From: an uncultured bacterium
GTDB lineage: Bacteria > Patescibacteriota > Minisyncoccia > UBA6257 > 2-01-FULL-56-20
Direction: 5' to 3'
Length of the DNA: 64,000 bases
Assembly: GCA_963718515.1 (NCBI GenBank)
Contig: OY970354.1
Coordinates: forward strand, 566,808-630,807
Shown: in pieces, positions 15,232 through 60,727 of the stretch
Numbering within the stretch: the first letter of the stretch is position 1
Layout: each line of letters starts with the position of its first letter
Translations under genes and position numbers: made by a program
Notes under the pieces: generated by a model
What the model was told of the DNA's origin: nothing
Database searches by the model: none
The model's input: the letters and a program-made list of their open reading frames with translations, nothing else

Positions 15232-16684
15232 ATGTCTAACAACGAAGTGATTCTCCGGTTTAATGATGTGTCGTTCGAGTATGGAAAGAAGCCCATTTTA
15301 CACGAGGCCACGTTTTCCGTGCGCCGCGGGGCTAAGATCACCCTGATGGGGCAAAATGGTGCCGGCAAGAGCACGATGTTCCAACTCATCCTCGGAAACA
15401 TCGTGACGGAACAAGGCAACGTCATTGTGGAAAAAGGATTGACGATGGCCATCGCGAAGCAGGTCATCCCGCGCGCCGAGCTGGACTCGACGGTGCTCCA
15501 ATTTTTTGAGAACGCGTTCCCCAAAAAGGTGTACGACATTGAGCCGCGCATAAAGAAAGTCCTCGAGGTGGTGAATCTCGTGGCCCCGCTCGATCGCGCA
15601 CTCAAGAGTTTTTCCGGCGGACAACAGGCGCGACTTCTTCTCGCACACGCCCTCATCCAAGACCCCGACATGCTCCTGCTTGACGAGCCGACCAATAATC
15701 TGGACAAGGCCGGCATCGAACATCTCACCAAATTTATCATCGATTCCAAAAAGACCTGCATCGTCATTTCTCACGACGCCGACTTCTTGAACTCATTCAC
15801 GCAAGGCGTGCTCTATTTGGACGTCTTTACCAAGAAGATCGAGCAGTACACTGGCAATTATTTTGACGTATTGAAAGAGATCACCGCGCGGCTTGAGCGC
15901 GAGCGCATGAAGAACGTGCGCCTCCAGCGCGACATCATTCACCGCAAAGAACAGATGAACTTCTTTGCACAAAAAGGCGGCCACATGCGCGACGTTGCCC
16001 GTAAGATGAACGAAAAGATCGAGGAACTCGAGGAAGAAGTCGTGGAGGTCCGCCAGGAAGACAGGACGATCCGCGGATTTGTCATCCCTTGCCAGGAAGA
16101 TATCAGCGGCCGCATCCTTGAGCTCACGTCGGTGAACGTCATCAGGAATCATAAACCGGCGGCAAAGAAAGTTGACTATCGCGCTCAAAAAAGGCGAGCG
16201 CTTGCACTTGGTAGGGCCGAACGGTATCGGAAAGACCACATTGCTTGAAGCGCTCGCGACCGGCCATGCAAAGGGCGAGCTCGTTGAACCGGGAATCCGC
16301 ATCGGCTATTATCGCCAGGATTTTTCCACACTCGATTTTGAGGCGACGGTTTGGGATACGCTCGCTCGCGCCATGCGCGAAGGCGATCAGGATCGATTGC
16401 GCTCCACCGCCGCAGGATTCCTGCTCGACGCGGACCTGCTTCGCGCGCGGATCGGCGCGCTCTCCGAAGGCCAGAAGGGCCTCGTCGCTTTTGCAAAACT
16501 ATCACTTGAGGCGCCGGGCCTCCTCATTCTCGATGAGCCGACGAACCACATCAACTTCCGCCATATTCCGGTCATCGCAAAAGCCCTCGACCGCTATGAA
16601 GGCGCCATGATCCTCGTGAGTCACGTCCCGGACTTTGTGAAGCAGATAAAGATCGATTACACGCTCGATTTGGCGGCGTTATAG
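15232..16684 (+). pseudogene. ABC-F family ATPase interrupted by a +1 frameshift near 16165-16172
   Basis: Domain 1: GQNGAGKST, FSGGQQARL, LLLDEPTNNLD (frame of 15232). Domain 2: GPNGIGKTTLL, LSEGQKGLV, LILDEPTNHINF (frame of 16172). Homology switches frame at AAKK|LTIALKKGERL. Confidence 0.7.
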
Positions 16685-20272: not shown

Positions 20273-20635
20273 TTACAATTTATTTTTGCTATAGATAAGC
20301 CCTACGACCTTGGCGATCACCATGATGGCGAGTGCAAATACGAGCCATGGATCAAGCGCATGCTGGAGTTCACCCGCGACGATGCCGATGAGCAAAAGCG
20401 CGGAGCCGGCAAGATAGGCAATGCGATCCGCAAATAAGCGATGAAATTCCTCACGTTCATCGCCGTGATTTTCTTTCCATAAAAATACCGCGAAGGCGGT
20501 ATAGAGCACGACCGCCGCAATAAGAAATCCCATAATGATGTACCCCGGCATAAAGAGATTCCACGGGTTGAAAATAATATACAGCAATGCCACCAAACCG
20601 AGTCCCACCGATAATTCCCCCTTAAATGTATTCAT
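20273..20635 (-). CDS. four-helix membrane protein paired with an XRE regulator (DUF2178-like arrangement, from memory)
   Basis: 120 aa, 4 TM segments, 3 nt downstream of the HTH gene. Confidence 0.5.
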   Translation of the reverse strand: MNTFKGELSVGLGLVALLYIIFNPWNLFMPGYIIMGFLIAAVVLYTAFAVFLWKENHGDEREEFHRLFADRIAYLAGSALLLIGIVAGELQHALDPWLVFALAIMVIAKVVGLIYSKNKL

Positions 20636-20638
20636 GAT

Positions 20639-20839
20639 TTATAGATAAAAAAGATCCTCGACGGGTTTTTTAAAGAATTTTGCCAGTTTGAGCGCGAGGA
20701 GAACCGAAGGGACGTAATTCCCTTTTTCGATGGCAATGATCGTCTGCCGGCTCACGCCGATCTTTTCCGAAAGTTTTTCCTGCGTGATGTCGGATCCCAT
20801 CCGTATCTCATATATTTTATTCCGCACCGCCTCTTTCAT
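20639..20839 (-). CDS. XRE-family helix-turn-helix transcriptional regulator (66 aa)
   Basis: ITQEKLSEKIGVSRQTIIAIEKGNYVPSVLLALKLAKFF. Confidence 0.85.
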   Translation of the reverse strand: MKEAVRNKIYEIRMGSDITQEKLSEKIGVSRQTIIAIEKGNYVPSVLLALKLAKFFKKPVEDLFYL

Positions 20840-20890
20840 ACATTTTATTGTAACGCGATGGAAGTGTATGTCAAGCAGGCTTTACATAGA

Positions 20891-22516
20891 CTATTGGACG
20901 AGGGGCAATGTGACCTTAAATGTGCTTCCGAGGCCTTCTCCTGGCGACTCGGCGGAGAGAGTGCCCCCATGTGCTTCCGTGATCTTGCGGGCAATGTAGA
21001 GTCCCAAGCCGGTGCCGCGGATCTCTTTCTTTACCCTCTCATCGCGGATGAATTCTTCAAAAAGATGCGGAATGAGCAATGCCGGAATGCCCAACCCGGA
21101 ATCCGTGACAGTGATTAAGGCAAATGTTCCTTCCCTTTTTAATGTCACCTTAATGAAGCCGCTCGGAGTATATTTTATGGCATTATCCACAAGGTTCTGG
21201 ACGACCTGCTTGAATTTCTCCCTATCGATATTAACAAACATAGCCTCTTGGGGCGGCTCACAGGTAAGCGTAAGATTTTTTGCCTGGGCGAGCGGCGACA
21301 CAAGATCCACCGTGCCCGTGATAAGCTGGGTCAGGTCAACGCGTTCAAAAACATATTCCATCTTGCCTTCTTCCACCTTGCGTATGTCAAGAAGCGTGTT
21401 GATAAGCTCGATGAGCTCATCTGCGGATCCCTGCACTTTTCCAAGCGTTTCCTTCACCTTATCCCCCACCGGCCCGTATGCGCCGCCCATGATAAGCGTA
21501 ATGAAGCCTTTTATTGCCGCGAGCGGCGATCGTATCTGATGCGACGCGAGCGACAAAAGCTGACTCTTGAAGCGGCCAAGTTCTTCGAGCTGTTTATTAT
21601 CCGCCTCGATCTTTTCGTTGAGGCGCTGAAGTTCCTCGCGCTGTTCGACTTCTTTCTGGACGCTCTGAATGAGGAGTAAACCAAAGATCAGAACAAGAAT
21701 GAATTCACCGATCCTGAATAACGTCTCCGGAAAGGTCTGCGAGAAAATAATCTCGGAAAACGTCGTGACGGTCAGAAGGAAGGCTAATATTTCCACGGAG
21801 ATCACCTTTACGCTCAACAAATGATATTTGGTGATCGCATAGGTGGTGAATGCGATGAACGGGAAAAAGAATACCGCGGCGAGAGGAATAAAGCGGACAT
21901 CCTGAAAGACGATCGGCAGGACGAGGTTGAAGATGATCAACAGCAGGAATGTGATCGCCGCGCCGCACAGCACAAAAATGAATTGTGTTCTTTCCAATCC
22001 TTTTGTCTTTATCATCTTTTTTATCAAAAGTATGAGTGCGGCGATGACGAGACCGAAGGCGGTTATCCCGAAGAGCGGGATGCCTGGCCCGAGGATAGCC
22101 TGCGAGACCATTCCCACCTGCTCGGGCTTTTCAATCCCGGCAAAGATGAACGGAGTGAGAGTGAGCAGCGATACCAAGCCTACCGCGGGAACAAGCAACC
22201 ATTTATAGAGTGATGGATAGGTCGCCGACTCCCGCGGAAATACGTAAGAAAAATGAAAGAATGAGAACGCGTGCCAGAGGGCGAAAAAGATAGTGAACCG
22301 CAGGACCCACAAGATAATGCTCGGGGTATTGAGTTGATAGCTCACATAATTTACCGCGCTGTAGAATACCGTCAGGCCTGATAAAAAAAGGAACGCGCGA
22401 GCGGTTGAACTCTTTGGATTGTTCAAGAATACCACAACACCAAGCACGCAAATGGCCGCTATCGTCACCCCAACCGCAAGAAGATATATATTTAAAAATG
22501 CCGAGAGGAAGTTCAT
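20891..22516 (-). CDS. sensor histidine kinase with a multi-pass membrane sensor domain
   Basis: About 290 aa of TM helices and a coiled coil. H-box SLASHQIRSPLAAI, N-box DNAIKYT, G-boxes DSGLGI and GTGLGLYIA. Confidence 0.9.
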   Translation of the reverse strand: MNFLSAFLNIYLLAVGVTIAAICVLGVVVFLNNPKSSTARAFLFLSGLTVFYSAVNYVSYQLNTPSIILWVLRFTIFFALWHAFSFFHFSYVFPRESATYPSLYKWLLVPAVGLVSLLTLTPFIFAGIEKPEQVGMVSQAILGPGIPLFGITAFGLVIAALILLIKKMIKTKGLERTQFIFVLCGAAITFLLLIIFNLVLPIVFQDVRFIPLAAVFFFPFIAFTTYAITKYHLLSVKVISVEILAFLLTVTTFSEIIFSQTFPETLFRIGEFILVLIFGLLLIQSVQKEVEQREELQRLNEKIEADNKQLEELGRFKSQLLSLASHQIRSPLAAIKGFITLIMGGAYGPVGDKVKETLGKVQGSADELIELINTLLDIRKVEEGKMEYVFERVDLTQLITGTVDLVSPLAQAKNLTLTCEPPQEAMFVNIDREKFKQVVQNLVDNAIKYTPSGFIKVTLKREGTFALITVTDSGLGIPALLIPHLFEEFIRDERVKKEIRGTGLGLYIARKITEAHGGTLSAESPGEGLGSTFKVTLPLVQ

Positions 22517-22518
22517 TG

Positions 22519-23595
22519 CTACGATAGGGTTGTGATCGCCGGCGGCTTCTTGAGCGACGACGCGGTCGGCGGGTCGGCATAGCCGATGCGGAACATCATG
22601 ACGATCGTTTTTCCGTCGGTATCAAATATCGACTGTATGCCTTCATATGCTTTTTCGACCGCTTCCTTTTGGCCATCGGTGAATACATCACCTTCACCCG
22701 CCACTATGCGTTGGTAGAAAAAGAGGACGCCGGTGAGCGGTTGCATGCTCAATCCTTCCTTTGTTGCAGTGAGCCATAATCGTTGTAACACCCTCCCTGC
22801 GTCGATGAAGGAACGGGTTCGCTCATCGGTGATCGTAATGATCCCTATCGCGGAAGCGGATGCATATATCTTGCTATTTTCCTTCGCCCCCATTTTTGCG
22901 GCACCGAGCGCATTAAAGATCCTCATAATTGCCCAATGTTTAAAAAGACGGAACATCGCCCGGGCGGGAGGAAGCAGTTCGAGCACTTCAATATAAAATC
23001 CGGAGCGTTCTTTTACCTCTTCTTCCAATGTCCAGTGCACATGGGAAAAGAAAAAATCGTGGAGCGATTTGTTTTCAAGGAGAAGTGAATCATTGACGCT
23101 CGCGATATTCGCCAGGCGTTTAATATTGGAAGGTTCCGTGACGAACGCCACCTCGATGCCTTCCATTTCTTTGCCAGCATCCGAAAGTGTTTTGATCACC
23201 GGCGCCGGGATCGCCCCTCCTTTATATATCTTTCGGTTCGTTGAACGCTCCGCGATGAATGGATAAAGGAAAAACCCATCGTTTCCGCTTCCATCGCCCA
23301 CTTCACTCAGTAAGATCGTGGCGACGAGATTCGTGTCGTCGCCCTTGGACATAATTGTGACGGATGCCATAAGACCGAAGTGTCCGGCGGCGATACTGAT
23401 ATTTTCTATCACCGCACCATGGGCTATGGACGATGCCCGTTGCTGAAAATTATAAAGGGATTGATCGTTCTCGGGAACATTAAAAAGGGATATCTCGTTC
23501 CCGCGGACGGCAAACCGCCACGGTTGGGCGTTTTCCCCGGAAGGTGCTTGGACGGCAGACTCAAGGATGCGTTGTATCGTCTCGGGAGACATCAT
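22519..23595 (-). CDS. double-domain nitroreductase-fold FMN oxidoreductase (Acg / Rv1355c C-terminal type)
   Basis: AVQAPSGENAQPWRFAV; 358 aa, about twice a simple nitroreductase. 2 nt upstream of the HK start. Confidence 0.7.
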   Translation of the reverse strand: MMSPETIQRILESAVQAPSGENAQPWRFAVRGNEISLFNVPENDQSLYNFQQRASSIAHGAVIENISIAAGHFGLMASVTIMSKGDDTNLVATILLSEVGDGSGNDGFFLYPFIAERSTNRKIYKGGAIPAPVIKTLSDAGKEMEGIEVAFVTEPSNIKRLANIASVNDSLLLENKSLHDFFFSHVHWTLEEEVKERSGFYIEVLELLPPARAMFRLFKHWAIMRIFNALGAAKMGAKENSKIYASASAIGIITITDERTRSFIDAGRVLQRLWLTATKEGLSMQPLTGVLFFYQRIVAGEGDVFTDGQKEAVEKAYEGIQSIFDTDGKTIVMMFRIGYADPPTASSLKKPPAITTLS

Positions 23596-23612
23596 CCTTT
23601 ATAGTATATCAC

Positions 23613-24809
23613 TCACAGTCCGAATATTTTACGAAATTCCTTTGCGGTTTTTGCCCGGCCCCTGCGTGCTGCCGGCGAATTGTAGCCCGGGAGCAATCGT
23701 TCGTCGAGCGAAACGATCGAACGGTTATCGATGACCGGCTGGCCATTCACGATTTTGCGCACGCAATAAGCGACGGATGCGCCGGAGAGCATCGCTGCAC
23801 CGCCAAGCTGTGGCCATGAGACGATCGTCTTCCCAAGTTGGAGCAATGATTGGCGCATGCGCTCCGTGACGTTCTCGGGACCAACGTGTTTCGTGATCAT
23901 TTTTCCGATCTCGAACTTTTTGAGGTCGCTCAGGCTCTCATACGAAACATTCCCCAATCTGCCATGAAAAAATTTTGTCTTTGGGTTTTTATCATATCGC
24001 TCGACGTCCACAACCGCGCTATCGCCATTGTCTGCGGCCATCACGACCGCGAGGCGATTCTTCTTCGCGTGCTCGCGAATGAGATATTTCATGCCGAGAT
24101 GATCAACTTCGTCGACGACGATATCCAATTTTGGCGCACCGTTAAAAAAGCGCGCGATGTTCTTTGGGTTTAGGCCGTCCTCGAATATCTCGACGGTTGC
24201 ATACGGATTCATCTCGTAAATCTGCCGCGCGGCCATCTCTACTTTTAACAAGCCGAGATTTTGAATGCCCGAACGGATGCGGTTCGTGTTTGAAAGCGCG
24301 AGCCGGTCATGGTCGGCAAGCCGGATATGTCGCCCCCCGCCCTGGAGGGCGATCGCGAGCGCCACATTGGAGCCGACGCTCAACCCAGCGATGCCGATCA
24401 CCGCGTCATAGAATTTTTCTTGCTCTCCATCACTCACCAGATATCGGTTCCGCGCGGTGCGGACGCGTTGGAAATCATGTTCATGCAAAATATGCGAAAT
24501 TGCGAAGAGCCATGGAAGATATACCCATATGCCATGGTAGATAAGCGGTGCCTTCTTAGTGATCGATGCGATATATTTTTGGAAGAGCGCCTCAAATTCC
24601 GGGCTCTGTGCGAGCGTGGGATTGTTTATGGCAAACAACTCTCGCTGTTCTTCCATATAATCATCCACGACGGAACGAATGGCGTGGGTTTTAAGCAATG
24701 CGGAGACCTTCGAGCGATCATTCGCACGTGAGAGATCGAATAATAATGGCTTCTGCGGTCCCCCTGCGGCAGTCATCTTCTTTAATTTTTTTTGCAGTAT
24801 ATTATCCAT
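23613..24809 (-). CDS. ThiF/MoeB/E1-like adenylyltransferase-fold protein (Rv1355c N-terminal type)
   Basis: IGIAGLSVGSNVALAIALQGGG...LADHDRLALSNTNR Rossmann/adenylation motif, preceded by a roughly 130-aa N-domain (WVYLPW). Confidence 0.7.
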   Translation of the reverse strand: MDNILQKKLKKMTAAGGPQKPLLFDLSRANDRSKVSALLKTHAIRSVVDDYMEEQRELFAINNPTLAQSPEFEALFQKYIASITKKAPLIYHGIWVYLPWLFAISHILHEHDFQRVRTARNRYLVSDGEQEKFYDAVIGIAGLSVGSNVALAIALQGGGRHIRLADHDRLALSNTNRIRSGIQNLGLLKVEMAARQIYEMNPYATVEIFEDGLNPKNIARFFNGAPKLDIVVDEVDHLGMKYLIREHAKKNRLAVVMAADNGDSAVVDVERYDKNPKTKFFHGRLGNVSYESLSDLKKFEIGKMITKHVGPENVTERMRQSLLQLGKTIVSWPQLGGAAMLSGASVAYCVRKIVNGQPVIDNRSIVSLDERLLPGYNSPAARRGRAKTAKEFRKIFGL

Positions 24810-24816
24810 GGCAATA

Positions 24817-26322
24817 TTATTTTATATTTGAGTGACGTTCGATATAGTGCGGTTTCAATCCGGGTTTAAAGTAGCGGGTATGCTGATATGGCCACAACTT
24901 GATGCGCGGGCGCACATCTTTCTTGATGTGAGCACTCATATCCAGGTATTCAAGATTGATCCTGCGCAACGTTTCCGTGACGCTTGCTCGGATCTCCGCG
25001 GCAAAGGTTGCATTTGGCTTGATAGCCTGGCATAGCTCAATGTTGATCGTCCAATATTGGTCCATCCCCTCGTCCAGGGATTTCGTGATCACAAACTTTC
25101 CGGTCAATGCCCGCATCAGGCGCTTCGTATTCAAGCCTGCTTTGATATGCTCCGGATAGATATTCACGCCATAGAATTTTATCGTGTCGTCGCTCCGGCC
25201 AGAGAAGCAGACGAGCGGCAGCTGACGAGATGGTTCCGAAAGACCTGAGGGCTTGCCACCAGCGCGCATCATCGCGCTCTTGACCTCTTCTGCGGAAAAC
25301 ACTTTTCCCCGATCGTGGATATTAAAGCGGATAAGCGGAATGCCACTCGAGGAAGAAAAAATAAGTTCGTTCTTTATTGATTCGATATAGCGAAGCGACG
25401 GATGATATTGAAAAAATTGGGGCGCGACGGGATCCCCCGTGAGTACTTCGAGGAATTCCGGATGCTGTTCCGCAAACCGCTTTACGGAAATACTAAATGG
25501 AGTTTCATATCCCATAAGGAGCATCTCGGATGAACCATAGGTGTTAAATATCCGCATGGCAGACGCCGGGATCCCAGCTTTTTCCGCGATATAACTCCGC
25601 CACACTTCGTTGAATCCTTCGCTACAGAACATCAGGCCGAGATGCTTTTTGGACCATGCGATCCCCTCTCGTGCGCCAGATTCGATCACATCTTTAATAA
25701 AGAATGGATGCCCGATCAAAACGGTCTGATCATAGTGGTGAGAAAGATTTTGCACCCCGCGGAGCATCTCTTTTTTATTATTCCCCACGCTCATAATCGT
25801 CATCTGGTATTTTTTGAGCGCGGTGAGCCAGCTCGGCAGGAGCGTCGCAACGCCCGAGATATAGATCCCCATGGGGAATCCAATCAGCAATAAGGTTGAG
25901 TGTTTTTGGATATTAAAATATTCCCGGTATAAGAATTCGTGAACGAGCGCCGCCTCGAGATCTTGTTCTACAGTCCGCGGCCAGAACTTAGGCTCGCCGG
26001 TGGTCCCTGAACTTGTGGCGATGAACTGGGCCGAGGAAATATTGCCGTCCCAGCATCGCGCTTCCACCGGATAGCGGGCGATATAATTTTTAGCATCCGT
26101 GAGCGGCACGGCGGAAAAGTCCGCCATGGTTTTTACGCGCGCGTGATTCACGCGCTCCGATTTAAGGAATGCCTTATACGCAGGCACGCGCTCCGCCGCA
26201 GAATGGAAAAGTGCGAGCGCTTTTTTGCCCGCACGATCCGGCAACAGCCATTCGCCGCGGGCCAGCAATAATCCCTTAAGCGATCCGAGTGTTCTATTTG
26301 ATATCAACAGTTCCTTATTCAT
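24817..26322 (-). CDS. adenylate-forming ligase, PaaK / coenzyme F390 synthetase-like
   Basis: ATSSGTTGEPKFWPR (P-loop-like A3 motif), YGSSE. Start trimmed to MNKELL at 26322, giving an 8-nt overlap with the lyase stop. Confidence 0.75.
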   Translation of the reverse strand: MNKELLISNRTLGSLKGLLLARGEWLLPDRAGKKALALFHSAAERVPAYKAFLKSERVNHARVKTMADFSAVPLTDAKNYIARYPVEARCWDGNISSAQFIATSSGTTGEPKFWPRTVEQDLEAALVHEFLYREYFNIQKHSTLLLIGFPMGIYISGVATLLPSWLTALKKYQMTIMSVGNNKKEMLRGVQNLSHHYDQTVLIGHPFFIKDVIESGAREGIAWSKKHLGLMFCSEGFNEVWRSYIAEKAGIPASAMRIFNTYGSSEMLLMGYETPFSISVKRFAEQHPEFLEVLTGDPVAPQFFQYHPSLRYIESIKNELIFSSSSGIPLIRFNIHDRGKVFSAEEVKSAMMRAGGKPSGLSEPSRQLPLVCFSGRSDDTIKFYGVNIYPEHIKAGLNTKRLMRALTGKFVITKSLDEGMDQYWTINIELCQAIKPNATFAAEIRASVTETLRRINLEYLDMSAHIKKDVRPRIKLWPYQHTRYFKPGLKPHYIERHSNIK

Positions 26323-27883
26323 CGCGCCGATGCATATCCAAAATCGCACTCTCTTTTGCGTAGTGTACGACACGCGCGAGCTGATGCGAAGCTTCGCGGT
26401 CGTCGATGATCGGCGGGAATATTTTTTGGATGTCGCGGATGAGCGCACGGGAAGATAAGGAATACTTATTCTTTGCCCCGAGGCACTCGGCAAGCTGCCC
26501 TAATGCCACGAGTTCTATTGAAAGCACGATGTATGCGTTTTCTATGACCTCCGCCGTCATGATCGACGCGTCGGTGCCCATGCTTACGATATCCTGATTG
26601 TCCGCGTTCGTGGGAATGGAATGGATATGTTGAGGAAAGGCCAATGTCTGGCTACGGGCCGTCGTGGAGGTCGCAACAAACTGAAGCCCCTGGAGCCCCA
26701 TCGTAAGACCCGGGGTTTTCATGTTGAGAAACGGAGGAAATGACTTATTGACGGCGCGATTCATAAAAAAGTTGATCCGGCGCTCCGAAAGCATGGTGAG
26801 TTTGACAATAGCCGCCTTCAGCTGGTCGACGCCCGCCGCGATATATTCCCCGTGAAAATTTCCGCCATGCAAGAATGCTTTTCCCTTAACATCAATGATC
26901 GGATTATCCGTCACCGAATTCACTTCTACCACCACTTCGCGGGCAAATATTCTTAGGGTATCAAGCACAGGCCCAACCACCTGCGGAATACATCGGAACG
27001 AATACACTTCCTGAACGCTCTCTGGAATCGTGTGGGTTTTATCAGTGAGCGCCACCGAATCCTGAAATTTTTGCCGGCTGCGCATCAGCTTTGATGAAGC
27101 GGTGAGCGAGCGCAACATTCGCGCAATATCCTTTTGCCCGGGATGCGGACGAAGTGCGTGTAATTGTTCCGAGATGCCGTCAGTGAATGAATTTACTGAT
27201 TCCAAGGCGCATGCGGCATTCCGAACGGCAAGACTCACAAGGCGCTCCGCTTCCACGCAAAGCAATGCCGAGATGCCGGTCATCATCGACGTGCCATTGA
27301 TGAGAGAAAGTCCCTCCTTGGCTTTTAATACATACGGCCCCATATGTAACTTCTTTAACACTCCCGCAATCGGTTGACGCTTTCCTTTATAGAACACCTC
27401 GCCCTCCCCGATGATCGCGAGGCCAATGTGCGCAAGCTGTACCAGATCGCCGCTTGTTCCGACCGCGCCATGTTCCGGGACGACGGGAACTACCCGTTCA
27501 TTGATAAAACGGGCAAGTCGCTGTAGTGGCGCCACAGAGATCCCGGAATATCCTTTGAGCAATGTGTTCAAGCGGACGACCATTGCGGCAACCACATACT
27601 CTTCCGGCAGAGGCTCACCCATGCCCATCGCGTGGCCATGAATGAGATTTTTTTGGAGCGCAATGAGCTCATCGCGGCCAATGATGTGCGATGCCATAGG
27701 ACCAAAGCCGGTGTTCACGCCGTAGATGATCTTTTTGCGCGTCGCCGCTTCCAAAAACCGCTCCGCCCGCGTGACGCGCGCGAGCGCGGCGGGGTCGATC
27801 CTCACCCGTGCCGCGGCATCGTGGGCGATCAAATAAATGTCTTCAAGCGAAATGTCACTTCCTGTAAGCGTAATGGTCTTCAT
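26315..27883 (-). CDS. MIO-dependent aromatic amino acid ammonia-lyase family (HAL/PAL/TAL/aminomutase)
   Basis: YGVNTGFG, GAVGTSGDLVQLAH (MIO triad T143-S144-G145 at 27449-27457), LQKNLIHGHAMGMG. Start trimmed to MKTITL at 27883. Confidence 0.9.
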   Translation of the reverse strand: MKTITLTGSDISLEDIYLIAHDAAARVRIDPAALARVTRAERFLEAATRKKIIYGVNTGFGPMASHIIGRDELIALQKNLIHGHAMGMGEPLPEEYVVAAMVVRLNTLLKGYSGISVAPLQRLARFINERVVPVVPEHGAVGTSGDLVQLAHIGLAIIGEGEVFYKGKRQPIAGVLKKLHMGPYVLKAKEGLSLINGTSMMTGISALLCVEAERLVSLAVRNAACALESVNSFTDGISEQLHALRPHPGQKDIARMLRSLTASSKLMRSRQKFQDSVALTDKTHTIPESVQEVYSFRCIPQVVGPVLDTLRIFAREVVVEVNSVTDNPIIDVKGKAFLHGGNFHGEYIAAGVDQLKAAIVKLTMLSERRINFFMNRAVNKSFPPFLNMKTPGLTMGLQGLQFVATSTTARSQTLAFPQHIHSIPTNADNQDIVSMGTDASIMTAEVIENAYIVLSIELVALGQLAECLGAKNKYSLSSRALIRDIQKIFPPIIDDREASHQLARVVHYAKESAILDMHRRDE

Positions 27884-27896
27884 AATAATGGTCTTA

Positions 27897-28295
27897 CTAT
27901 CTATCGTGCATGAATTTACGCAGATTCTCACTCAACGTAGAAACGTCTAATTTACTAAAGAATACAACGCCAGCAAGTTCCTCCGCAAGCCGCGCCCGCT
28001 CCGCCTGCGGGATCTCCGCCATCGGATCGCGTAAGCTCGTAAAAAAAGCGAACTGGATCCTTTGTATCTTAGGATTGCGCCGCACCGCCATGGCAAATTC
28101 CCAGCCGCTCGGGCCCGGCGGCATATAAATATCGCTCAAAATAAGGTCTGGCAGGAGCTCTTCCGCCTTGGTGAGCGCCTCATCCACGCTACGGGTGATC
28201 ACCGTATCAAAACCTTCGGATCGTAATTGCACCGAGGCGATCTCTAAAAAGTCTTCTTCGTCATCGATCAGAAGGACAAGGGGATGTTCTCTCAT
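27897..28295 (-). CDS. stand-alone response regulator receiver domain protein
   Basis: LLIDDEEDF, LILSDIYMP (phospho-Asp), FFTSL, FFSKLD. No output domain. First gene of the operon. Confidence 0.9.
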   Translation of the reverse strand: MREHPLVLLIDDEEDFLEIASVQLRSEGFDTVITRSVDEALTKAEELLPDLILSDIYMPPGPSGWEFAMAVRRNPKIQRIQFAFFTSLRDPMAEIPQAERARLAEELAGVVFFSKLDVSTLSENLRKFMHDR

Positions 28296-28334: not shown

Positions 28335-28838
28335 ATGAAGCTGTTCCAGGAAAAAAATTACCGCGCGCTTTTTAGAATAGGCATTCTTGTAAAAGCGGTG
28401 GATGGAATCATCGAGGCCGGCGCCGGGGTTTTCCTTTATTTTGTAAATTATTCCACGGTGAACGCGATCCTCTTCTCGGCGTTTCGGGAAGAAATAGCGG
28501 AGAATCCGAGAGATGCTTTTTGGCAATATCTCATCAATGAGTGGCACGCACTCTCGTTGTCCCGGCATTCCTTTTGGGGAATATTATTTTTTGTGCACGG
28601 AATAACGAAATTTTTATTATCCATAGCCCTTTTAAAAAACCAGCTGTGGGCATATCCAACGTCCGCAGCGATCTTCACGCTTTTCGTGGCGTACGAAATA
28701 TATTCGTGCGTCTATCATCCATCGCTATTCCTTGGGCTCATCGCCGTGTTTGACGCCTCCGTCGTCATTTTGATCCTGCACGAATATCGTCACTTGATAA
28801 AAAATAATTCTGGTCTTCTTTTTACTAAAATTAAATAA
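28335..28838 (+). CDS. four-helix membrane protein (DUF2127-like, from memory)
   Basis: Start trimmed to MKLFQEKNYRALFRIGILVKAVDGIIE; 4 TM segments. Confidence 0.55.
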   Translation: MKLFQEKNYRALFRIGILVKAVDGIIEAGAGVFLYFVNYSTVNAILFSAFREEIAENPRDAFWQYLINEWHALSLSRHSFWGILFFVHGITKFLLSIALLKNQLWAYPTSAAIFTLFVAYEIYSCVYHPSLFLGLIAVFDASVVILILHEYRHLIKNNSGLLFTKIK

Positions 28839-28977
28839 AGTCCGGGCTGAGAAGTTTGCGGAGGCAATGCCGGCTTGGTCGTTCATTCTGATGAACGCGG
28901 CATTGCCGAGCACACAGGCTGGCGGGTGCCGCAGGAGCACCTGAACAGCCGGTTCTCAGCCCGGACTTTATTTAATT
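28829..28977. terminator. compound inverted repeat: a bidirectional terminator-like 25-bp outer stem enclosing a 99-nt two-hairpin insert (candidate structured RNA or MITE)
   Basis: AATTAAATAAAGTCCGGGCTGAGAA (28829-28853) is the perfect reverse complement of 28953-28977. Inner stems: 28863-72/28898-907, 28880-86/28891-97, 28917-21/28946-50 and 28925-29/28937-41. Confidence 0.55.
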
Positions 28978-30789
28978 ATTTTTTCCCGCCTTCTTCCGTT
29001 CGTTCTCGTTCAAATATTTCTTGCGGATGCGAACGTTCTGCGGGGTGATCTCCACAAGCTCGTCATCGCTGATATAATCGAGCGCATCTTCGAGCGTGAG
29101 CGTGAGCGGCACCTCGAGCTGATCCGCCAATCCTTCGTTCTTCGCGCGGAAGTTGGTGAGTTCTTTCTCCCGCGCCACGTGCACGAGCACATCGCCTTCG
29201 CGGGGCGTTTCGCCCACCACCATGCCTTCATAGACCGCAACGCCGGCGCTGATGAAAAGTATCCCCCTGCCCTGCGCCGTCACAAGGCCATAATTATTTG
29301 ACGTGCCCGCCTGCGTGGCGACGATCGAACCGTGAAGCAACGGCGGGAGGTCGCCTTTGTACGGTTCATATCCCAAAAATATCGTGTTCATGATGCCGGT
29401 GCCTTTTGTGGCGGTCAGAAATTTATTCCGAATGCCGATAAGGCCGCGCGTCGGAATTGTAAAGTCCATGTAGGCATTCTTATTATCGTCCACACGCATA
29501 TTCGTCATCAGACCCAAGCGCTTGCCCAACATCTCAATGACAGTGCCGGAATACATCTCCGGAACTTCGATTGAAACGAGTTCGATCGGCTCGGTCTTCT
29601 TGCCATCCACTTCTTTATAAATAACCTGCGGCTTGGAAACCTCGAGCTCAAACCCTTCGCGGCGCATTTTTTCGATAAGAATAGCGAGGTGCAGTTCACC
29701 GCGCCCCGCGACCACCCAGCGATCGCTCGCTTCGGTCGGCGTCACCGCGAGCGCCACGTCAGTCTCCAATTCTTTTTCGAGACGATCCTTAAGATTGCGC
29801 GACGTCGTAAACTTTCCTTCCTTGCCGCGGAACGGCGACGTGTTCACGGAGAATGTCATTTTGATCGTCGGCTCGTCGATGTGGATTGTCGGCAAGCGCG
29901 ATCGGACGCGGCCGGGTCAGCGATCGTTTCGCCGATCGAGACGTCCGGAATGCCCGCGATGCAAACGATCTCCCCCGCCTCGGCGGACTCTACTTCTATC
30001 TTTCCCAAGACCATCAAAAAGCATCACCGACGTGAGTTGCGACATTTTTTATGTCGCCCGCGCGATTGATATGCGCGACCGTCATATTCTTTTTGAGAGT
30101 GCCGGAATATAAACGCCCGATCGCGATCTTGCCTTTATAGTTATCGTAGGCCAAATTAACCGTGAGCATCTGCAATGTATCGATCTCGCTCTTTTTGGGC
30201 GCCGGCAGATAGTTCACAATCGTTTCAAATACCGGCAAAATGTCTGTCATCTTGGAAAGATCTTTTTCGCATGCCTGCCTTGCCATCACGCGCAGCGGCG
30301 TAGATCACCGGGAATTCGATCTGCTCTTCCGTGGCGTCGAGCTCAAAGAAAAGATCGTAGGTGGCGTTCAACGCCCACTCCACACGCGCATCCGGCTTGT
30401 CGATCTTGTTCACCACGACGACCACTCTTGTGGCCGGCCTGAATGGCTTTGCGCAAAACGAACTTTGTCTGCGGCATCGGGCCTTCTTTTGCATCGATGA
30501 GCAAAAGCACGCCATCCACCATTCGCATGATGCGCTCTACCTCGCCGCCAAAGTCCGCGTGGCCGGGCGTATCCACGATGTTGATCTTTGTATCTTTATA
30601 GATAACCGATGCGTTCTTGGAAAAAATCGTAATGCCGCGCTCGCGCTCGAGCTCGTTCGAATCCATGATAAGGTCGCCGTTGGTCGCCGTCTTCTGCTTA
30701 AAACTTGCAGATTGCTTTAATAAGGCATCGACGAGGGTCGTCTTGCCGTGGTCAACGTGTGCAATAATGGCGATGTTTCGGATATCCAT
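28972..30789 (-). pseudogene. typA: translational GTPase TypA/BipA, disrupted by at least 5 frameshifts between about 29890 and 30435
   Basis: N-terminus [26 protein letters not shown]. Homology then hops frames: NKIDKPDAR / DILPVFETIVNYLPAP / LFDGLGK / IEVESAEAGEIVCIAGIPD / LPTIHIDEPTIKMTF... through to the C-terminus. Confidence 0.85.
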
Positions 30790-31611: not shown

Positions 31612-32577
31612 ATGAAAAAATTATTTTTTCTTGCAGCAGCATTAGTTGCAATAGGGAGCATTGGAGGGCATATGGTAGTAAACACTGCGCACGCGCAGAC
31701 GACCTCAACGCTCACGCCGAGCCAGGTCGCGGCGATGGAGCAAGAGCTCGCAGTCGCGAAGGCGACGCTCGCAAATCTTGAGATGGAGGCAGGGATGATC
31801 CCTGCCGGTGACTCCGGATCGGCGACGGTCGCAGTCGTAACGGCACCGACAACTCCGGCAACGGTTCCGATGGTAACCCCGGGCACCCAGCTTTCCGCAA
31901 GCCAGATCAGCGAGGTTCGCGCCACATTGGGCACGCTCGCGACGATGCTCGGACAGTTGGGCACTTCGCTCGCGGCCAACACGACGCTCACCCCCTCGCA
32001 AGACCTCGCCGTACACGCAACGCTGAACGGCATGGAGGGCACGCTCGCAGCAATGGTAACTGACGTTGCGAACGGCACGGAAATGACCGGCACATCCGCC
32101 GCATCCGCACCGATCGCGATGAACACCGAGCCGAGCAAGGCTTCGACGCCGGCCGCAACCGCGCCGACCGTCACCGTCACTCCGTCAGCAGGCACACCGC
32201 CAAGCGTGGCGGCAAACACCGGACTCACGCCGACCGTGCAAACGACGCCTACTCCGGTAGCGGCGGCGGCTGTAGCAAACGGCGCTCCGCAGACCGCACA
32301 GGCATCGTCGTTCTGGTCGTTCACCAAAGCACACTGGCCGACGATCGTGATTGTATTGCTCGTGATAGCGATCCTCGCGATCCTATTCTGGCCGGAGAAA
32401 GAAGAAATGAGGACCGTCACCACAACGACGACCATGCCGAGCAAGCCTAAGGCTTCGGCGCAACCGTCAGTCACGGTGATCCAAACGACGGTATCTCCTT
32501 CCAATCTGCCAAACAACACCCACTCCGCACCTCCGACCCCCGTCGCGAATGCAGTGGCAGCACCAGCGCAAAAATAG
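31612..32577 (+). CDS. secreted, C-terminally anchored Ala/Thr/Pro-rich protein
   Basis: Signal peptide MKKLFFLAAALVAIGSIGG...AHA, low-complexity A/T/P body, TM helix WPTIVIVLLVIAILAILFW. Confidence 0.65.
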   Translation: MKKLFFLAAALVAIGSIGGHMVVNTAHAQTTSTLTPSQVAAMEQELAVAKATLANLEMEAGMIPAGDSGSATVAVVTAPTTPATVPMVTPGTQLSASQISEVRATLGTLATMLGQLGTSLAANTTLTPSQDLAVHATLNGMEGTLAAMVTDVANGTEMTGTSAASAPIAMNTEPSKASTPAATAPTVTVTPSAGTPPSVAANTGLTPTVQTTPTPVAAAAVANGAPQTAQASSFWSFTKAHWPTIVIVLLVIAILAILFWPEKEEMRTVTTTTTMPSKPKASAQPSVTVIQTTVSPSNLPNNTHSAPPTPVANAVAAPAQK

Positions 32578-60648: not shown

Positions 60649-60727
60649 AAATGAGGATGTCTTGTCTTTTTGCACACACACCGTCCTCGGTGGCATTGGT
60701 GTGCAAAAAGACAAGCCATCCTCATTT
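60649..60727 (-). terminator. 79-nt near-perfect hairpin (29-position stem) inside the efflux operon
   Basis: 60649-60677 pairs with 60699-60727 (28 pairs, 1 mismatch at 60660/60716). An inner 5-bp stem sits at 60679-83/60688-92. On the minus strand it is followed by TTTTTATAAGTT. Confidence 0.6.

What the first reader, a model, noticed from the sequence alone, without database searches (positions are those of the whole stretch)
28829..28977. 149-nt compound inverted repeat filling a convergent intergenic gap: structured RNA, elaborate bidirectional terminator, or MITE
Seen: a perfect 25-bp inverted repeat (28829-28853 versus 28953-28977) swallows both stop codons of the convergent genes (TAA 28836-38 and TAA 28974-72). 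Its GC core is GTCCGGGCTGAGAA, and T-rich runs follow it on both strands. Instead of a small loop, the stem encloses 99 nt. Those 99 nt fold into two further arms. Arm A is GGCAATGCCG/CGGCATTGCC, with a 7-nt bulge and CGTTCAT-tctg-ATGAACG on top. Arm B is GGCTG/CAGCC, with an internal loop GCG/TGAA and GGTGC-cgcagga-GCACC. Together they form a three-way junction. All pairs are Watson-Crick, so the strand cannot be inferred. Ordinary terminators elsewhere in this window have 9-12 bp stems and 4-8 nt loops, so this element is an outlier.
Basis: seen in the sequence. Interest (0 to 1): 0.7.

Follow-up and report, generated by a model that had tools for sequence, protein, structure and literature searches.

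The report
Oversized branched terminator hairpin between convergent genes
A real and very stable 149-base nested hairpin sits where related bacteria have a small two-way transcription stop signal, so it is most likely an enlarged one-off version of that signal; no evidence was found that it is a known RNA or a proven jumping element.

Summary
A perfect 25-nt inverted repeat (28829-28853 / 28953-28977) encloses 99 nt that fold into two perfect hairpins. It is the most stable 150-nt stretch in the window and folds equally on both strands (z about -10).

It lies between convergent DUF2127 and typA genes. Five distinct relatives keep this gene pair. Four have only a 3-17 nt gap there, holding a compact A-tract/GC-stem/4-6 nt loop/T-tract bidirectional terminator. 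The fifth has a sigma-factor gene inserted, with a small hairpin after DUF2127.

The window's outer stem has the same layout: A/T-rich ends, a 14-bp GC core and U-rich tails on both strands. Its 3' arm abuts the typA stop exactly as in relatives. The net gain is about 135 nt.

Nothing else matched:
- No Rfam family matched.
- No second copy is in the window or in relatives' flanks.
- Exact arm-pair scans of genome, metagenome and viral collections gave only unrelated hits.
- No target-site duplication or parent IS was found.

Best reading: a lineage-specific bidirectional intrinsic terminator and 3'-end protector whose loop has become a folded three-way junction. A low-copy MITE or a separate small RNA is not excluded, because the rest of the source genome was unreachable. 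Frameshifts in typA and ABC-F point to assembly indel errors, so the DUF2127 stop may lie upstream of the repeat.

The parts
28335..28838 (+). DUF2127 membrane-protein gene (167 aa as called). Its last codons and TAA stop (28836-38) lie in the A/T-rich outer part of the 5' arm. The stop may really lie near 28805 if the A6 run at 28799-28804 is one base short.
   Evidence: Pfam PF09900, E=5.5e-24. An exact 167-aa match, P0001, is in the protein database. Homologues end ...HEYRHIKK plus 0-7 aa, most of them 3-5.
28829..28853 (.). Outer 5' arm: AATTAAATAAA (A/T-rich extension) plus GTCCGGGCTGAGAA (14-nt GC-rich core, 28840-28853).
   Evidence: Perfect 25-nt inverted repeat. Closed with a GAAA loop, the outer stem alone gives -39.7 kcal/mol and the GC core alone -27.9.
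28854..28916 (.). Arm A: extended hairpin built from GGCAATGCCG / CGGCATTGCC (10 bp), a 7-nt bulge GCTTGGT, CGTTCAT / ATGAACG (7 bp) and the loop TCTG. Five weaker basal pairs (GU.UGC / GCA.AC) sit below it.
   Evidence: Folds alone at -30.2 kcal/mol (+) and -26.8 (-). The same helices appear in the full MFE on both strands.
28918..28951 (.). Arm B: GGCTG / CAGCC (5 bp), an internal loop, GGTGC / GCACC (5 bp) and a 7-nt loop.
   Evidence: Folds alone at -22.3 kcal/mol (+) and -16.0 (-). Present in the MFE of both strands.
28953..28977 (.). Outer 3' arm: TTCTCAGCCCGGAC plus TTTATTTAATT. It overlaps the typA stop (TTA, 28972-74) and last codon.
   Evidence: In the alignment with relatives, this arm falls where their terminator 3' arm and T-tract abut the typA stop.
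28967..28984 (+). U-rich tail for + strand transcripts (TTTATTTAATTATTTTTT). It is partly paired with the A-rich 5' extension.
28825..28839 (-). U-rich tail for - strand transcripts (UUUAUUUAAUUUUAG, read on the - strand).
28972..30789 (-). typA/bipA translational GTPase gene, convergent with DUF2127. It is broken into four frame segments by three indels.
   Evidence: Pfam BipA_C, EFG_C and EFG_III. tblastn with the relative's TypA gives four pieces in frames -2, -1, -3 and -2 at 72-97% identity.

Best explanation
The element is a lineage-specific, enlarged bidirectional intrinsic (Rho-independent) terminator and 3'-end-protecting structure, shared by the convergent DUF2127 and typA transcripts.

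**Proposed mechanism (inferred).**
1. RNA polymerase arriving from either side first transcribes an A-rich stretch and the 14-nt GC-rich arm.
2. It then transcribes 99 nt that collapse locally into two independent hairpins. This keeps the two outer arms close together.
3. It then transcribes the complementary arm followed by a U-rich tract.
4. The 14-bp GC core zips up, extended by 11 A-U pairs, directly upstream of the U tract. This releases the transcript and leaves a very stable 3' three-way junction that blocks 3'-to-5' exonucleases.

Because it must fold when read in both directions, every helix is restricted to Watson-Crick pairs, as observed.

**Shown here.** The structure, its stability on both strands, its position, the layout it shares with relatives' terminators, and the roughly 135-nt gain relative to them.

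**Inferred only.** Actual termination or stabilisation, and the origin of the extra 99 nt (an insertion into, or stepwise growth of, an ordinary terminator loop).
For: 1. **Relatives.** Four distinct relatives with the same convergent DUF2127/typA pair (L001, L002, L008, L010) have a 3-17 nt gap. It holds one compact hairpin with an A-tract, an 8-13 bp GC stem, a 4-6 nt loop carrying the DUF2127 stop, and a T-tract abutting the typA stop. A fifth, L011, has a sigma-factor gene inserted at the junction and a similar small hairpin after DUF2127.
2. **Same order of parts.** The window's outer stem has the same layout. MAFFT places its 3' arm and T-rich tail on the relatives' 3' arm and T-tract next to the typA stop.
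3. **Tails.** U-rich tails follow the GC core on both strands.
4. **House style.** The same genome uses A-tract/hairpin/T-tract terminators at other convergent junctions: 33633-58, 37794-826, 47874-905 and 51963-95. It also has another very long hairpin at 60649-60727.
5. **Folding pathway.** Prefix folding shows that the inner hairpins form on their own. The three-way junction becomes the MFE as soon as 10-14 nt of the second arm exist, on both strands.
6. **Strand symmetry.** The main stems contain only Watson-Crick pairs, and both strands have z about -10.
7. **Literature.** Upstream A-tracts mark bidirectional terminators (PMC12207403). Extragenic palindromes between convergent genes act as terminator-stabilisers (bioRxiv 10.64898/2026.03.23.713779).
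Against: - The structure lies far outside canonical terminator geometry. Terminator loops have a median of 4 nt, and TransTermHP limits are loop <=13 nt and stem-loop <=59 nt (PMC12207403). My searches found no description of a branched terminator.
- On the - strand, the first arm transiently pairs with the interior before the second arm appears. This could slow hairpin closure.
- Nothing explains why 99 structured nucleotides should be kept in a gene-dense genome if termination were the only role.
- No transcript data are available.
- There is a single example, so there is no covariation or conservation test.
Confidence: 0.5

Rival explanations
1. It is a MITE-like, non-autonomous mobile element, or a relic of one, of about 140-149 bp with 21-25 bp terminal inverted repeats. 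It inserted at the 3' ends of the two genes, replacing the ancestral small terminator and now supplying stop codons and terminator function. This would compare with Correia elements or the pneumococcal terminator-like SPRITE repeats.
For: - Its size and perfect terminal inverted repeat fit a MITE.
- It is absent from the orthologous junction in every relative examined.
- The locus is remodelled in this clade. An island of about 8 kb lies upstream of DUF2127 in the window, and a sigma-factor gene is inserted at this junction in L011.
- Small repeats, especially SPRITE, are enriched between convergent genes close to 3' ends (PMC3049150).
- Palindromic AATT, TTAA or TA inside the outer arms could hide a target-site duplication.
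Against: - No second copy exists in the 64-kb window, even at 3 mismatches or with blastn-short, nhmmer or the covariance model.
- No copy exists in 107 kb of relatives' and other loci.
- The arm-pair pattern found only one unrelated Anaerolineae site in 185,579 species genomes and in JGI metagenomes, and nothing in IMG/VR.
- Phage and plasmid collections gave no homologue: nothing in phages and one 30-nt chance match (E=0.4) in plasmids.
- No direct repeat of 2 nt or more lies outside the inverted repeat.
- No transposase or IS with matching ends lies in the window.
- Any simple 'empty site' would leave DUF2127 without a stop for about 30 codons.
- The arm composition (A/T tract plus GC core) is that of a terminator.
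- If copies were spread evenly, finding none in the remaining 7.7% of the contig has probability about 0.92^N. This argues against more than 40 copies but not against a few.
Confidence: 0.25
2. The 99-nt core, or the whole 149 nt, is a discrete functional RNA. It could be a stable small RNA or a 3'-UTR-derived regulator whose closing stem doubles as its terminator, transcribed from one strand.
For: - The fold is extremely stable, with two well-defined arms and 9-nt single-stranded junction strands.
- The + strand is 7.5 kcal/mol more stable than the - strand.
- The interior is not needed for termination in the relatives.
Against: - There is no Rfam match on either strand at E<=10. The only hits are generic hairpin similarities at 8-15 bits against gathering scores of 35-80.
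- No promoter-like site lies in the gap.
- There are no homologues anywhere, so there is no conservation or covariation.
- The main stems have no G-U pairs, which is unusual for an RNA selected on one strand.
- ARAGORN finds no tRNA or tmRNA.
Confidence: 0.1
3. It works at the DNA level, as nested palindromes that form a cruciform or bind a dimeric protein. Examples would be a recombination site, a replication-related site or an operator-like site.
For: - All helices are perfect Watson-Crick pairs.
- The DNA fold has z = -13.8.
- The 10-bp palindromic pair GGCAATGCCG ... CGGCATTGCC could be a dimer-binding site.
Against: - No recombinase, relaxase, replication gene or adjacent regulator targets this site in the annotated neighbourhood.
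- The arms of the same 10+10 motif in viral contigs are unrelated chance hairpins.
- Its position at two 3' ends fits RNA-level function better.
Confidence: 0.05
4. It is related to RNase P RNA. The 5' arm contains AAAGUCCGGGCU, identical to the universally conserved CR-I/P4 strand. The element could then be a fragment, a mimic or an extreme miniature of rnpB.
For: There is an exact 12-nt match to E. coli rnpB positions 65-76. Only 1.4% of shuffled elements reach that local score.
Against: - No RNase P covariance model matches, even at E<=10 on 163 nt.
- The match to the P4 3' strand is a necessary consequence of the inverted repeat, so it is not independent evidence.
- The conserved bulged U of P4 is paired here.
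- Other CR-like fragments are short and in the wrong order.
- The resemblance was noticed post hoc.
Confidence: 0.02

Closest known systems
Bidirectional Rho-independent terminators at convergent genes (A-tract / GC hairpin / U-tract)
   Same: - It lies between two convergent stop codons.
- A GC-rich stem is flanked by complementary A- and U-rich tracts, so both strands give a hairpin plus U tail.
- The layout and position match the terminators at the orthologous junction in relatives.
   Different: - A 99-nt interior folded into two hairpins replaces the 3-8 nt loop, making a three-way junction.
- The stem is 25 bp, against roughly 8-13 bp.
[quoted passage not shown] 2011, PMC3049150)
   Same: - It is about 105-150 bp and terminator-like, with an unusually long duplex and a U-rich tract.
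- It lies close to 3' ends and between convergent genes.
- The target-site duplication is undetermined.
   Different: - SPRITE is a repeat family with 30 copies per genome, is AT-rich, and has only AAAA/TTTT termini.
- The element here is a singleton in all data searched, has 54% GC, and has a branched interior.
Bacterial MITEs such as Neisseria Correia elements (about 104-157 bp), ERIC and RUP (Delihas 2011, PMC3184786)
   Same: - The size range and long terminal inverted repeats match.
- It folds into a long stem-loop, is intergenic, and can alter gene 3' ends and transcription.
   Different: MITEs are defined by multiple copies, target-site duplications and a transposase acting in trans. 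None of these could be shown here.
REP / BIME / REPIN extragenic palindromes
   Same: They are palindromic elements in 3' UTRs, often between convergent genes, that act as context-dependent terminators and mRNA stabilisers.
   Different: REPs are short (about 35 nt), imperfect and highly repeated, and are linked to RAYT transposases. This element is a single copy with perfect arms and a complex interior.

Membership tests
Bidirectional intrinsic (Rho-independent) terminator | GC-rich stem immediately followed by a U-rich tract, on both strands (A-tract upstream) | tested here: met
   A 14-bp core with 9 G-C pairs is followed by TTTATTTAATTATTTTTT on the + strand and TTTATTTAATTTTAG on the - strand.
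Bidirectional intrinsic (Rho-independent) terminator | Located at the 3' ends of convergent transcription units | tested here: met
   It lies between the DUF2127 (+) and typA (-) stops. Relatives have a terminator at the same place.
Bidirectional intrinsic (Rho-independent) terminator | Simple hairpin with a short loop (TransTermHP criteria: loop 3-13 nt, stem-loop <=59 nt; median loop 4) | tested here: not met
   99 nt lie between the arms and the total is 149 nt. The criteria come from PMC12207403. The consensus terminator scan does not report it.
Bidirectional intrinsic (Rho-independent) terminator | Transcript 3' ends map to the U tract (actual termination) | not testable with these tools
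   No transcript data are available for this organism.
MITE | Terminal inverted repeats flanking a short core with no transposase (<400 bp) | tested here: met
   Perfect 25-bp inverted repeat and a 99-nt core.
MITE | Multiple dispersed copies in the genome | tested here: inconclusive
   - No further copy is in the 64-kb window.
- No copy is in the relatives' loci.
- Exact arm-pair scans of genome, metagenome and viral collections gave no related sequence.
- About 92% of the source contig could not be read.
MITE | Target-site duplication (direct repeat) flanking the inverted repeats | tested here: not met
   The flanks are ...CTAAA | element | ATTTT..., with no direct repeat of 2 nt or more. 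Only the palindromic AATT, TTAA or TA inside the arms could serve, and this cannot be resolved without a second copy.
MITE | Presence/absence polymorphism with a recognisable empty site | tested here: inconclusive
   It is absent in all relatives. These share only 63-73% DUF2127 identity, and the junction is otherwise rearranged, so no clean empty site can be reconstructed.
MITE | Parent IS or transposase with matching ends | tested here: not met
   The arm sequence occurs nowhere else in the window at up to 3 mismatches. The rest of the genome was not searched.
Any Rfam 15 RNA family | Covariance-model score at or above the family's gathering threshold | tested here: not met
   No hit reaches a gathering score. 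At E<=10 there are only 8-17 bit hits to unrelated models, mostly eukaryotic miRNA/lncRNA and archaeal snoRNA.
RNase P RNA | CR-I to CR-V, a P4 helix with the bulged U, and an overall covariance-model match | tested here: not met
   Only the 12-mer AAAGTCCGGGCT matches. The U is paired, and no RNase P model hits.
REP/REPIN | Short imperfect palindromes present in many copies | tested here: not met
   It is single-copy in the window, and the arms are not themselves hairpins.

The most novel reading that the evidence does not exclude
The 99-nt core is an independent module nested in the loop of a bidirectional terminator. It could be either a small hairpin-type mobile cassette that targets terminator loops, or a stable RNA released from the 3' ends of both convergent mRNAs. 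Either would be an undescribed class of terminator-nested element in a small-genome, probably ultra-small bacterium.
Probability: 0.1. Interest if true: 0.55.

Novelty: new variant of a known kind. Interest (0 to 1): 0.25.

Why it matters
If it does terminate in both directions, it shows that an intrinsic terminator can tolerate a loop of about 100 nt, provided the loop folds into its own hairpins. Standard terminator predictors discard that geometry, and I found no description of it. It would also show how 3'-end signals are rebuilt in gene-dense, reduced genomes.

As a single unreplicated example with no transcript data, its present value is modest. It is a candidate for a terminator assay, and a reminder to search the full genome for copies.

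Tried and rejected
- **Rfam.** I ran cmscan on 601 nt, on 163 nt and on the whole window. It found nothing but one tRNA elsewhere and sub-threshold hairpin look-alikes.
- **Ribozyme and intron ideas.** I considered a hammerhead (CUGAUGA at 28884-28890) and group II intron domain V. No covariance model matched, and the GAAA / A15.1 core is absent.
- **RNase P link.** The 12-mer match is real but isolated.
- **Copy searches in held sequence.** I used a 16-mer at up to 3 mismatches, blastn-short, nhmmer and a purpose-built covariance model (R1) over 171 kb. Only the element itself and GC-rich hairpins in an Anaerolineae locus were found.
- **Collection scans.** The 12+12 arm pattern in genome contigs and metagenome-contig hit one Anaerolineae sequence (L006 = L007) with an unrelated, rod-like interior. 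A 10+10 arm pattern in viral contigs gave one unrelated phage hairpin, L028. The 17-mer arm gave no viral hits. The inner 10+10 arm pattern gave 16 viral hits, all unrelated. Phage and plasmid blastn gave nothing meaningful.
- **Source genome.** An exact-protein look-up was not on record, so the genome-wide copy number could not be measured.
- **Other checks.** ARAGORN and TRF found nothing in the element. A 25-aa ORF in arm A (MPAWSFILMNAALPSTQAGGCRRST) with GGAGG only 2 nt upstream was considered as a type I toxin. I rejected it because the spacing is poor, the hydrophobic stretch is short and there is no promoter.
- **Adapter or artefact.** I saw no resemblance to the common sequencing-adapter sequences I recall from memory. 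I did not run a search for this.

Full report
**1. What is there**

The repeat finder gives a 25-nt, 100% complementary inverted repeat (28829-28853 / 28953-28977) with 99 nt between the arms, plus an inner 10-nt perfect pair at 28863-72 / 28898-907.

Folding gives the same three-way junction in all three conditions:

| Folded as | MFE (kcal/mol) | z-score | Shuffles as stable |
|---|---|---|---|
| + strand RNA | -89.8 | -10.2 | 0 of 200 |
| - strand RNA | -82.3 | -10.9 | 0 of 200 |
| DNA | -57.7 | -13.8 | 0 of 200 |

In a scan of all 2554 overlapping 150-nt windows it is the most stable. It scores -88.1 against a mean of -40.1 and sd 9.5, at only 54% GC. The next best windows are 63-70% GC. 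The feature is real and far beyond chance.

**2. Context**

- The left gene is a DUF2127 membrane protein (PF09900). The right gene, convergent, is typA/bipA (BipA_C, EFG_C).
- The outer arms consist of an 11-nt A/T-rich part plus a 14-nt GC-rich core. U-rich tails follow the core on both strands.
- Other convergent junctions in the window carry ordinary A-tract/hairpin/T-tract terminators with 10-13 bp stems and 4-8 nt loops.
- One more unusually long hairpin exists at 60649-60727, with 29-nt arms.

**3. Comparison with relatives**

The DUF2127 protein has an exact database entry on an 829,201-bp contig. Its nearest homologues are only 73% identical or less, so no close relative exists.

Contigs carrying homologues of 63-73% identity (L001-L005, L008-L011) show conserved synteny: ABC-F, MsrB, MsrA, a thioredoxin-like gene, DsbD, DUF2127, then typA convergent, then a peroxiredoxin. 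In these contigs:

- The DUF2127/typA gap is 3-17 nt. The exception is L011, where a sigma-factor gene is inserted.
- The junction is a compact hairpin, for example AAAAACGCCGCGaCC-TATA-GGcCGCGGCGTTTTT. The DUF2127 stop lies in the loop and the typA stop sits immediately after the T-tract.

A multiple alignment keeps homology up to the A-tract (about 28806) and resumes at the typA stop. It places the window's 3' arm and T-rich tail on the relatives' 3' arm and T-tract. The window has therefore gained about 135 nt at the exact site of a bidirectional terminator, and its outer stem keeps that terminator's architecture.

**4. Tests of the alternatives**

*Known RNA families.* No Rfam family matches, whether at gathering thresholds on the whole window or at E<=10 on 601 nt or 163 nt. 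ARAGORN finds nothing.

*Further copies.* None turned up in any search:

| Search | Result |
|---|---|
| 16-mer arm, up to 3 mismatches, in the window | only the two arms |
| blastn-short and nhmmer over window plus loci | only the element itself |
| Covariance model R1, 171 kb held | only the element and GC-rich hairpins in L006 |
| 12+12 arm pattern, 185,579 species genomes and JGI metagenomes | one Anaerolineae sequence (L006 = L007), unrelated rod-like interior |
| 12+12 arm pattern, IMG/VR | nothing |
| Looser arm and inner-arm patterns, IMG/VR | unrelated hairpins |
| Phage and plasmid blastn | no homologue |

*MITE features.* No direct repeat flanks the arms, no IS in the window shares them, and a simple empty site would leave DUF2127 without a stop codon. 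These points weaken the MITE reading.

*RNase P resemblance.* The arm contains AAAGUCCGGGCU, identical to CR-I of E. coli RNase P RNA. I treat this as coincidence for four reasons. RNase P models do not match. The similarity in the complementary arm follows automatically from the inverted repeat. The P4 bulged U is paired here. Other similarities are short and out of order.

**5. Mechanism**

Prefix folding was used as a proxy for co-transcriptional folding. Both inner hairpins form on their own: arm A at -30.2 / -26.8 kcal/mol and arm B at -22.3 / -16.0. The full junction becomes the minimum-energy fold once 10-14 nt of the second arm are made, in both directions.

The most economical explanation has three parts:

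- The outer stem is the working bidirectional terminator and 3'-end protector.
- The inner hairpins keep its two halves close despite the 99-nt separation.
- The need to fold on both transcripts explains the complete absence of G-U pairs in the main stems.

This goes beyond canonical terminator geometry (loop median 4 nt, stem-loop <=59 nt; PMC12207403), and I found no described branched terminator. The nearest analogues are terminator-like interspersed repeats such as pneumococcal SPRITE (PMC3049150), MITEs (PMC3184786) and REP elements that act as dual terminator-stabilisers between convergent genes. Termination itself is inferred, not shown.

**6. Caveat on sequence quality**

typA is split into four frame segments, and ABC-F has one frame change relative to intact orthologues. 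Two of the typA sites sit at A5-A6 runs. This is typical of long-read indel errors. The relatives' ENA records carry names such as contig_8009, which I take to be a long-read assembler's naming (my inference).

One extra A in the run at 28799-28804 would end DUF2127 at ...LIKK*. That matches homologues, which stop 0-7 residues (most often 3-5) after the KK. The statement that the repeat contains the DUF2127 stop should therefore be held loosely. The perfect pairing of all helices argues that the element itself is not affected.

**7. Verdict**

This is a real, strongly structured, lineage-specific element. It is best read as an enlarged, branched variant of the bidirectional terminator found at the same junction in relatives (confidence about 0.5). 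A mobile origin (about 0.25) and an independent RNA function (about 0.1) remain open. It is a new variant of a known kind and of modest interest unless copies or a discrete transcript are found.

Noticed in passing
window 28972-30789 (typA) and 15232-16684 (ABC-F): typA is broken by three frame changes (about 30047, 30275 and 30440) and ABC-F by one (about 16166-16209), although both are 72-97% identical to intact orthologues. Two of the typA sites are at A5-A6 runs. Assembly indel errors seem likelier than pseudogenes.
   Followed up: partly
window 28793-28838: The DUF2127 C-terminus (…HLIKNNSGLLFTKIK) is about 7 aa longer than in most homologues, which end …IKK plus 0-7 aa. One more A in the A6 run at 28799-28804 would give …LIKK*. 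An 11-nt inverted match (AAAAAATAATT at 28799-28809 against AATTATTTTTT at 28974-28984) also brackets the whole non-homologous segment.
   Followed up: partly
window 20273-28295: An island of about 8 kb lies between DsbD and DUF2127, which are adjacent or nearly adjacent in most relatives. It encodes a 120-aa unknown protein, a 7TM histidine kinase, a nitroreductase-like protein, a ThiF-like protein, a 500-aa protein with no Pfam hit, an aromatic amino-acid lyase and a response regulator. It could be a horizontally acquired modification or biosynthesis cluster.
   Followed up: partly
window 60649-60727: A second unusually long hairpin has 29-nt arms (97% complementary) and a 21-nt loop containing its own 5-bp mini-hairpin. 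It is flanked by A- and T-rich runs and lies between co-directional HlyD-like and MFS transporter genes (-48.5 kcal/mol).
   Followed up: partly
L006 2922-3047 (Anaerolineae MAG DAOTVS010000147.1), identical to L007 2412-2537: A GC-rich, rod-like hairpin of about 105 nt is closed by the same CCGGGCTGAGAA / TTCTCAGCCCGG. It is flanked by a 21-nt direct repeat (GGCGGCTyrAGCCCCGGGCTG) and lies just upstream of a radical-SAM-like ORF. It has no Rfam match and its interior is unrelated to the window element.
   Followed up: partly
window 28837-28848 and 28958-28969: The 12-mer AAAGTCCGGGCT in both arms is identical to the CR-I/P4 strand of E. coli RNase P RNA. No RNase P gene was detected anywhere in the 64-kb window.
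   Followed up: yes
window 31612-32577: A 321-aa Ala/Thr/Pro-rich, low-complexity protein with no Pfam hit is conserved at 49% identity in the relative L002. A long antisense ORF covers the same region.
   Followed up: no
L011 10534-11178: In one relative, a sigma-70 family gene is inserted between DUF2127 and typA. This junction therefore appears to be a recurrent site of rearrangement in the clade.
   Followed up: no
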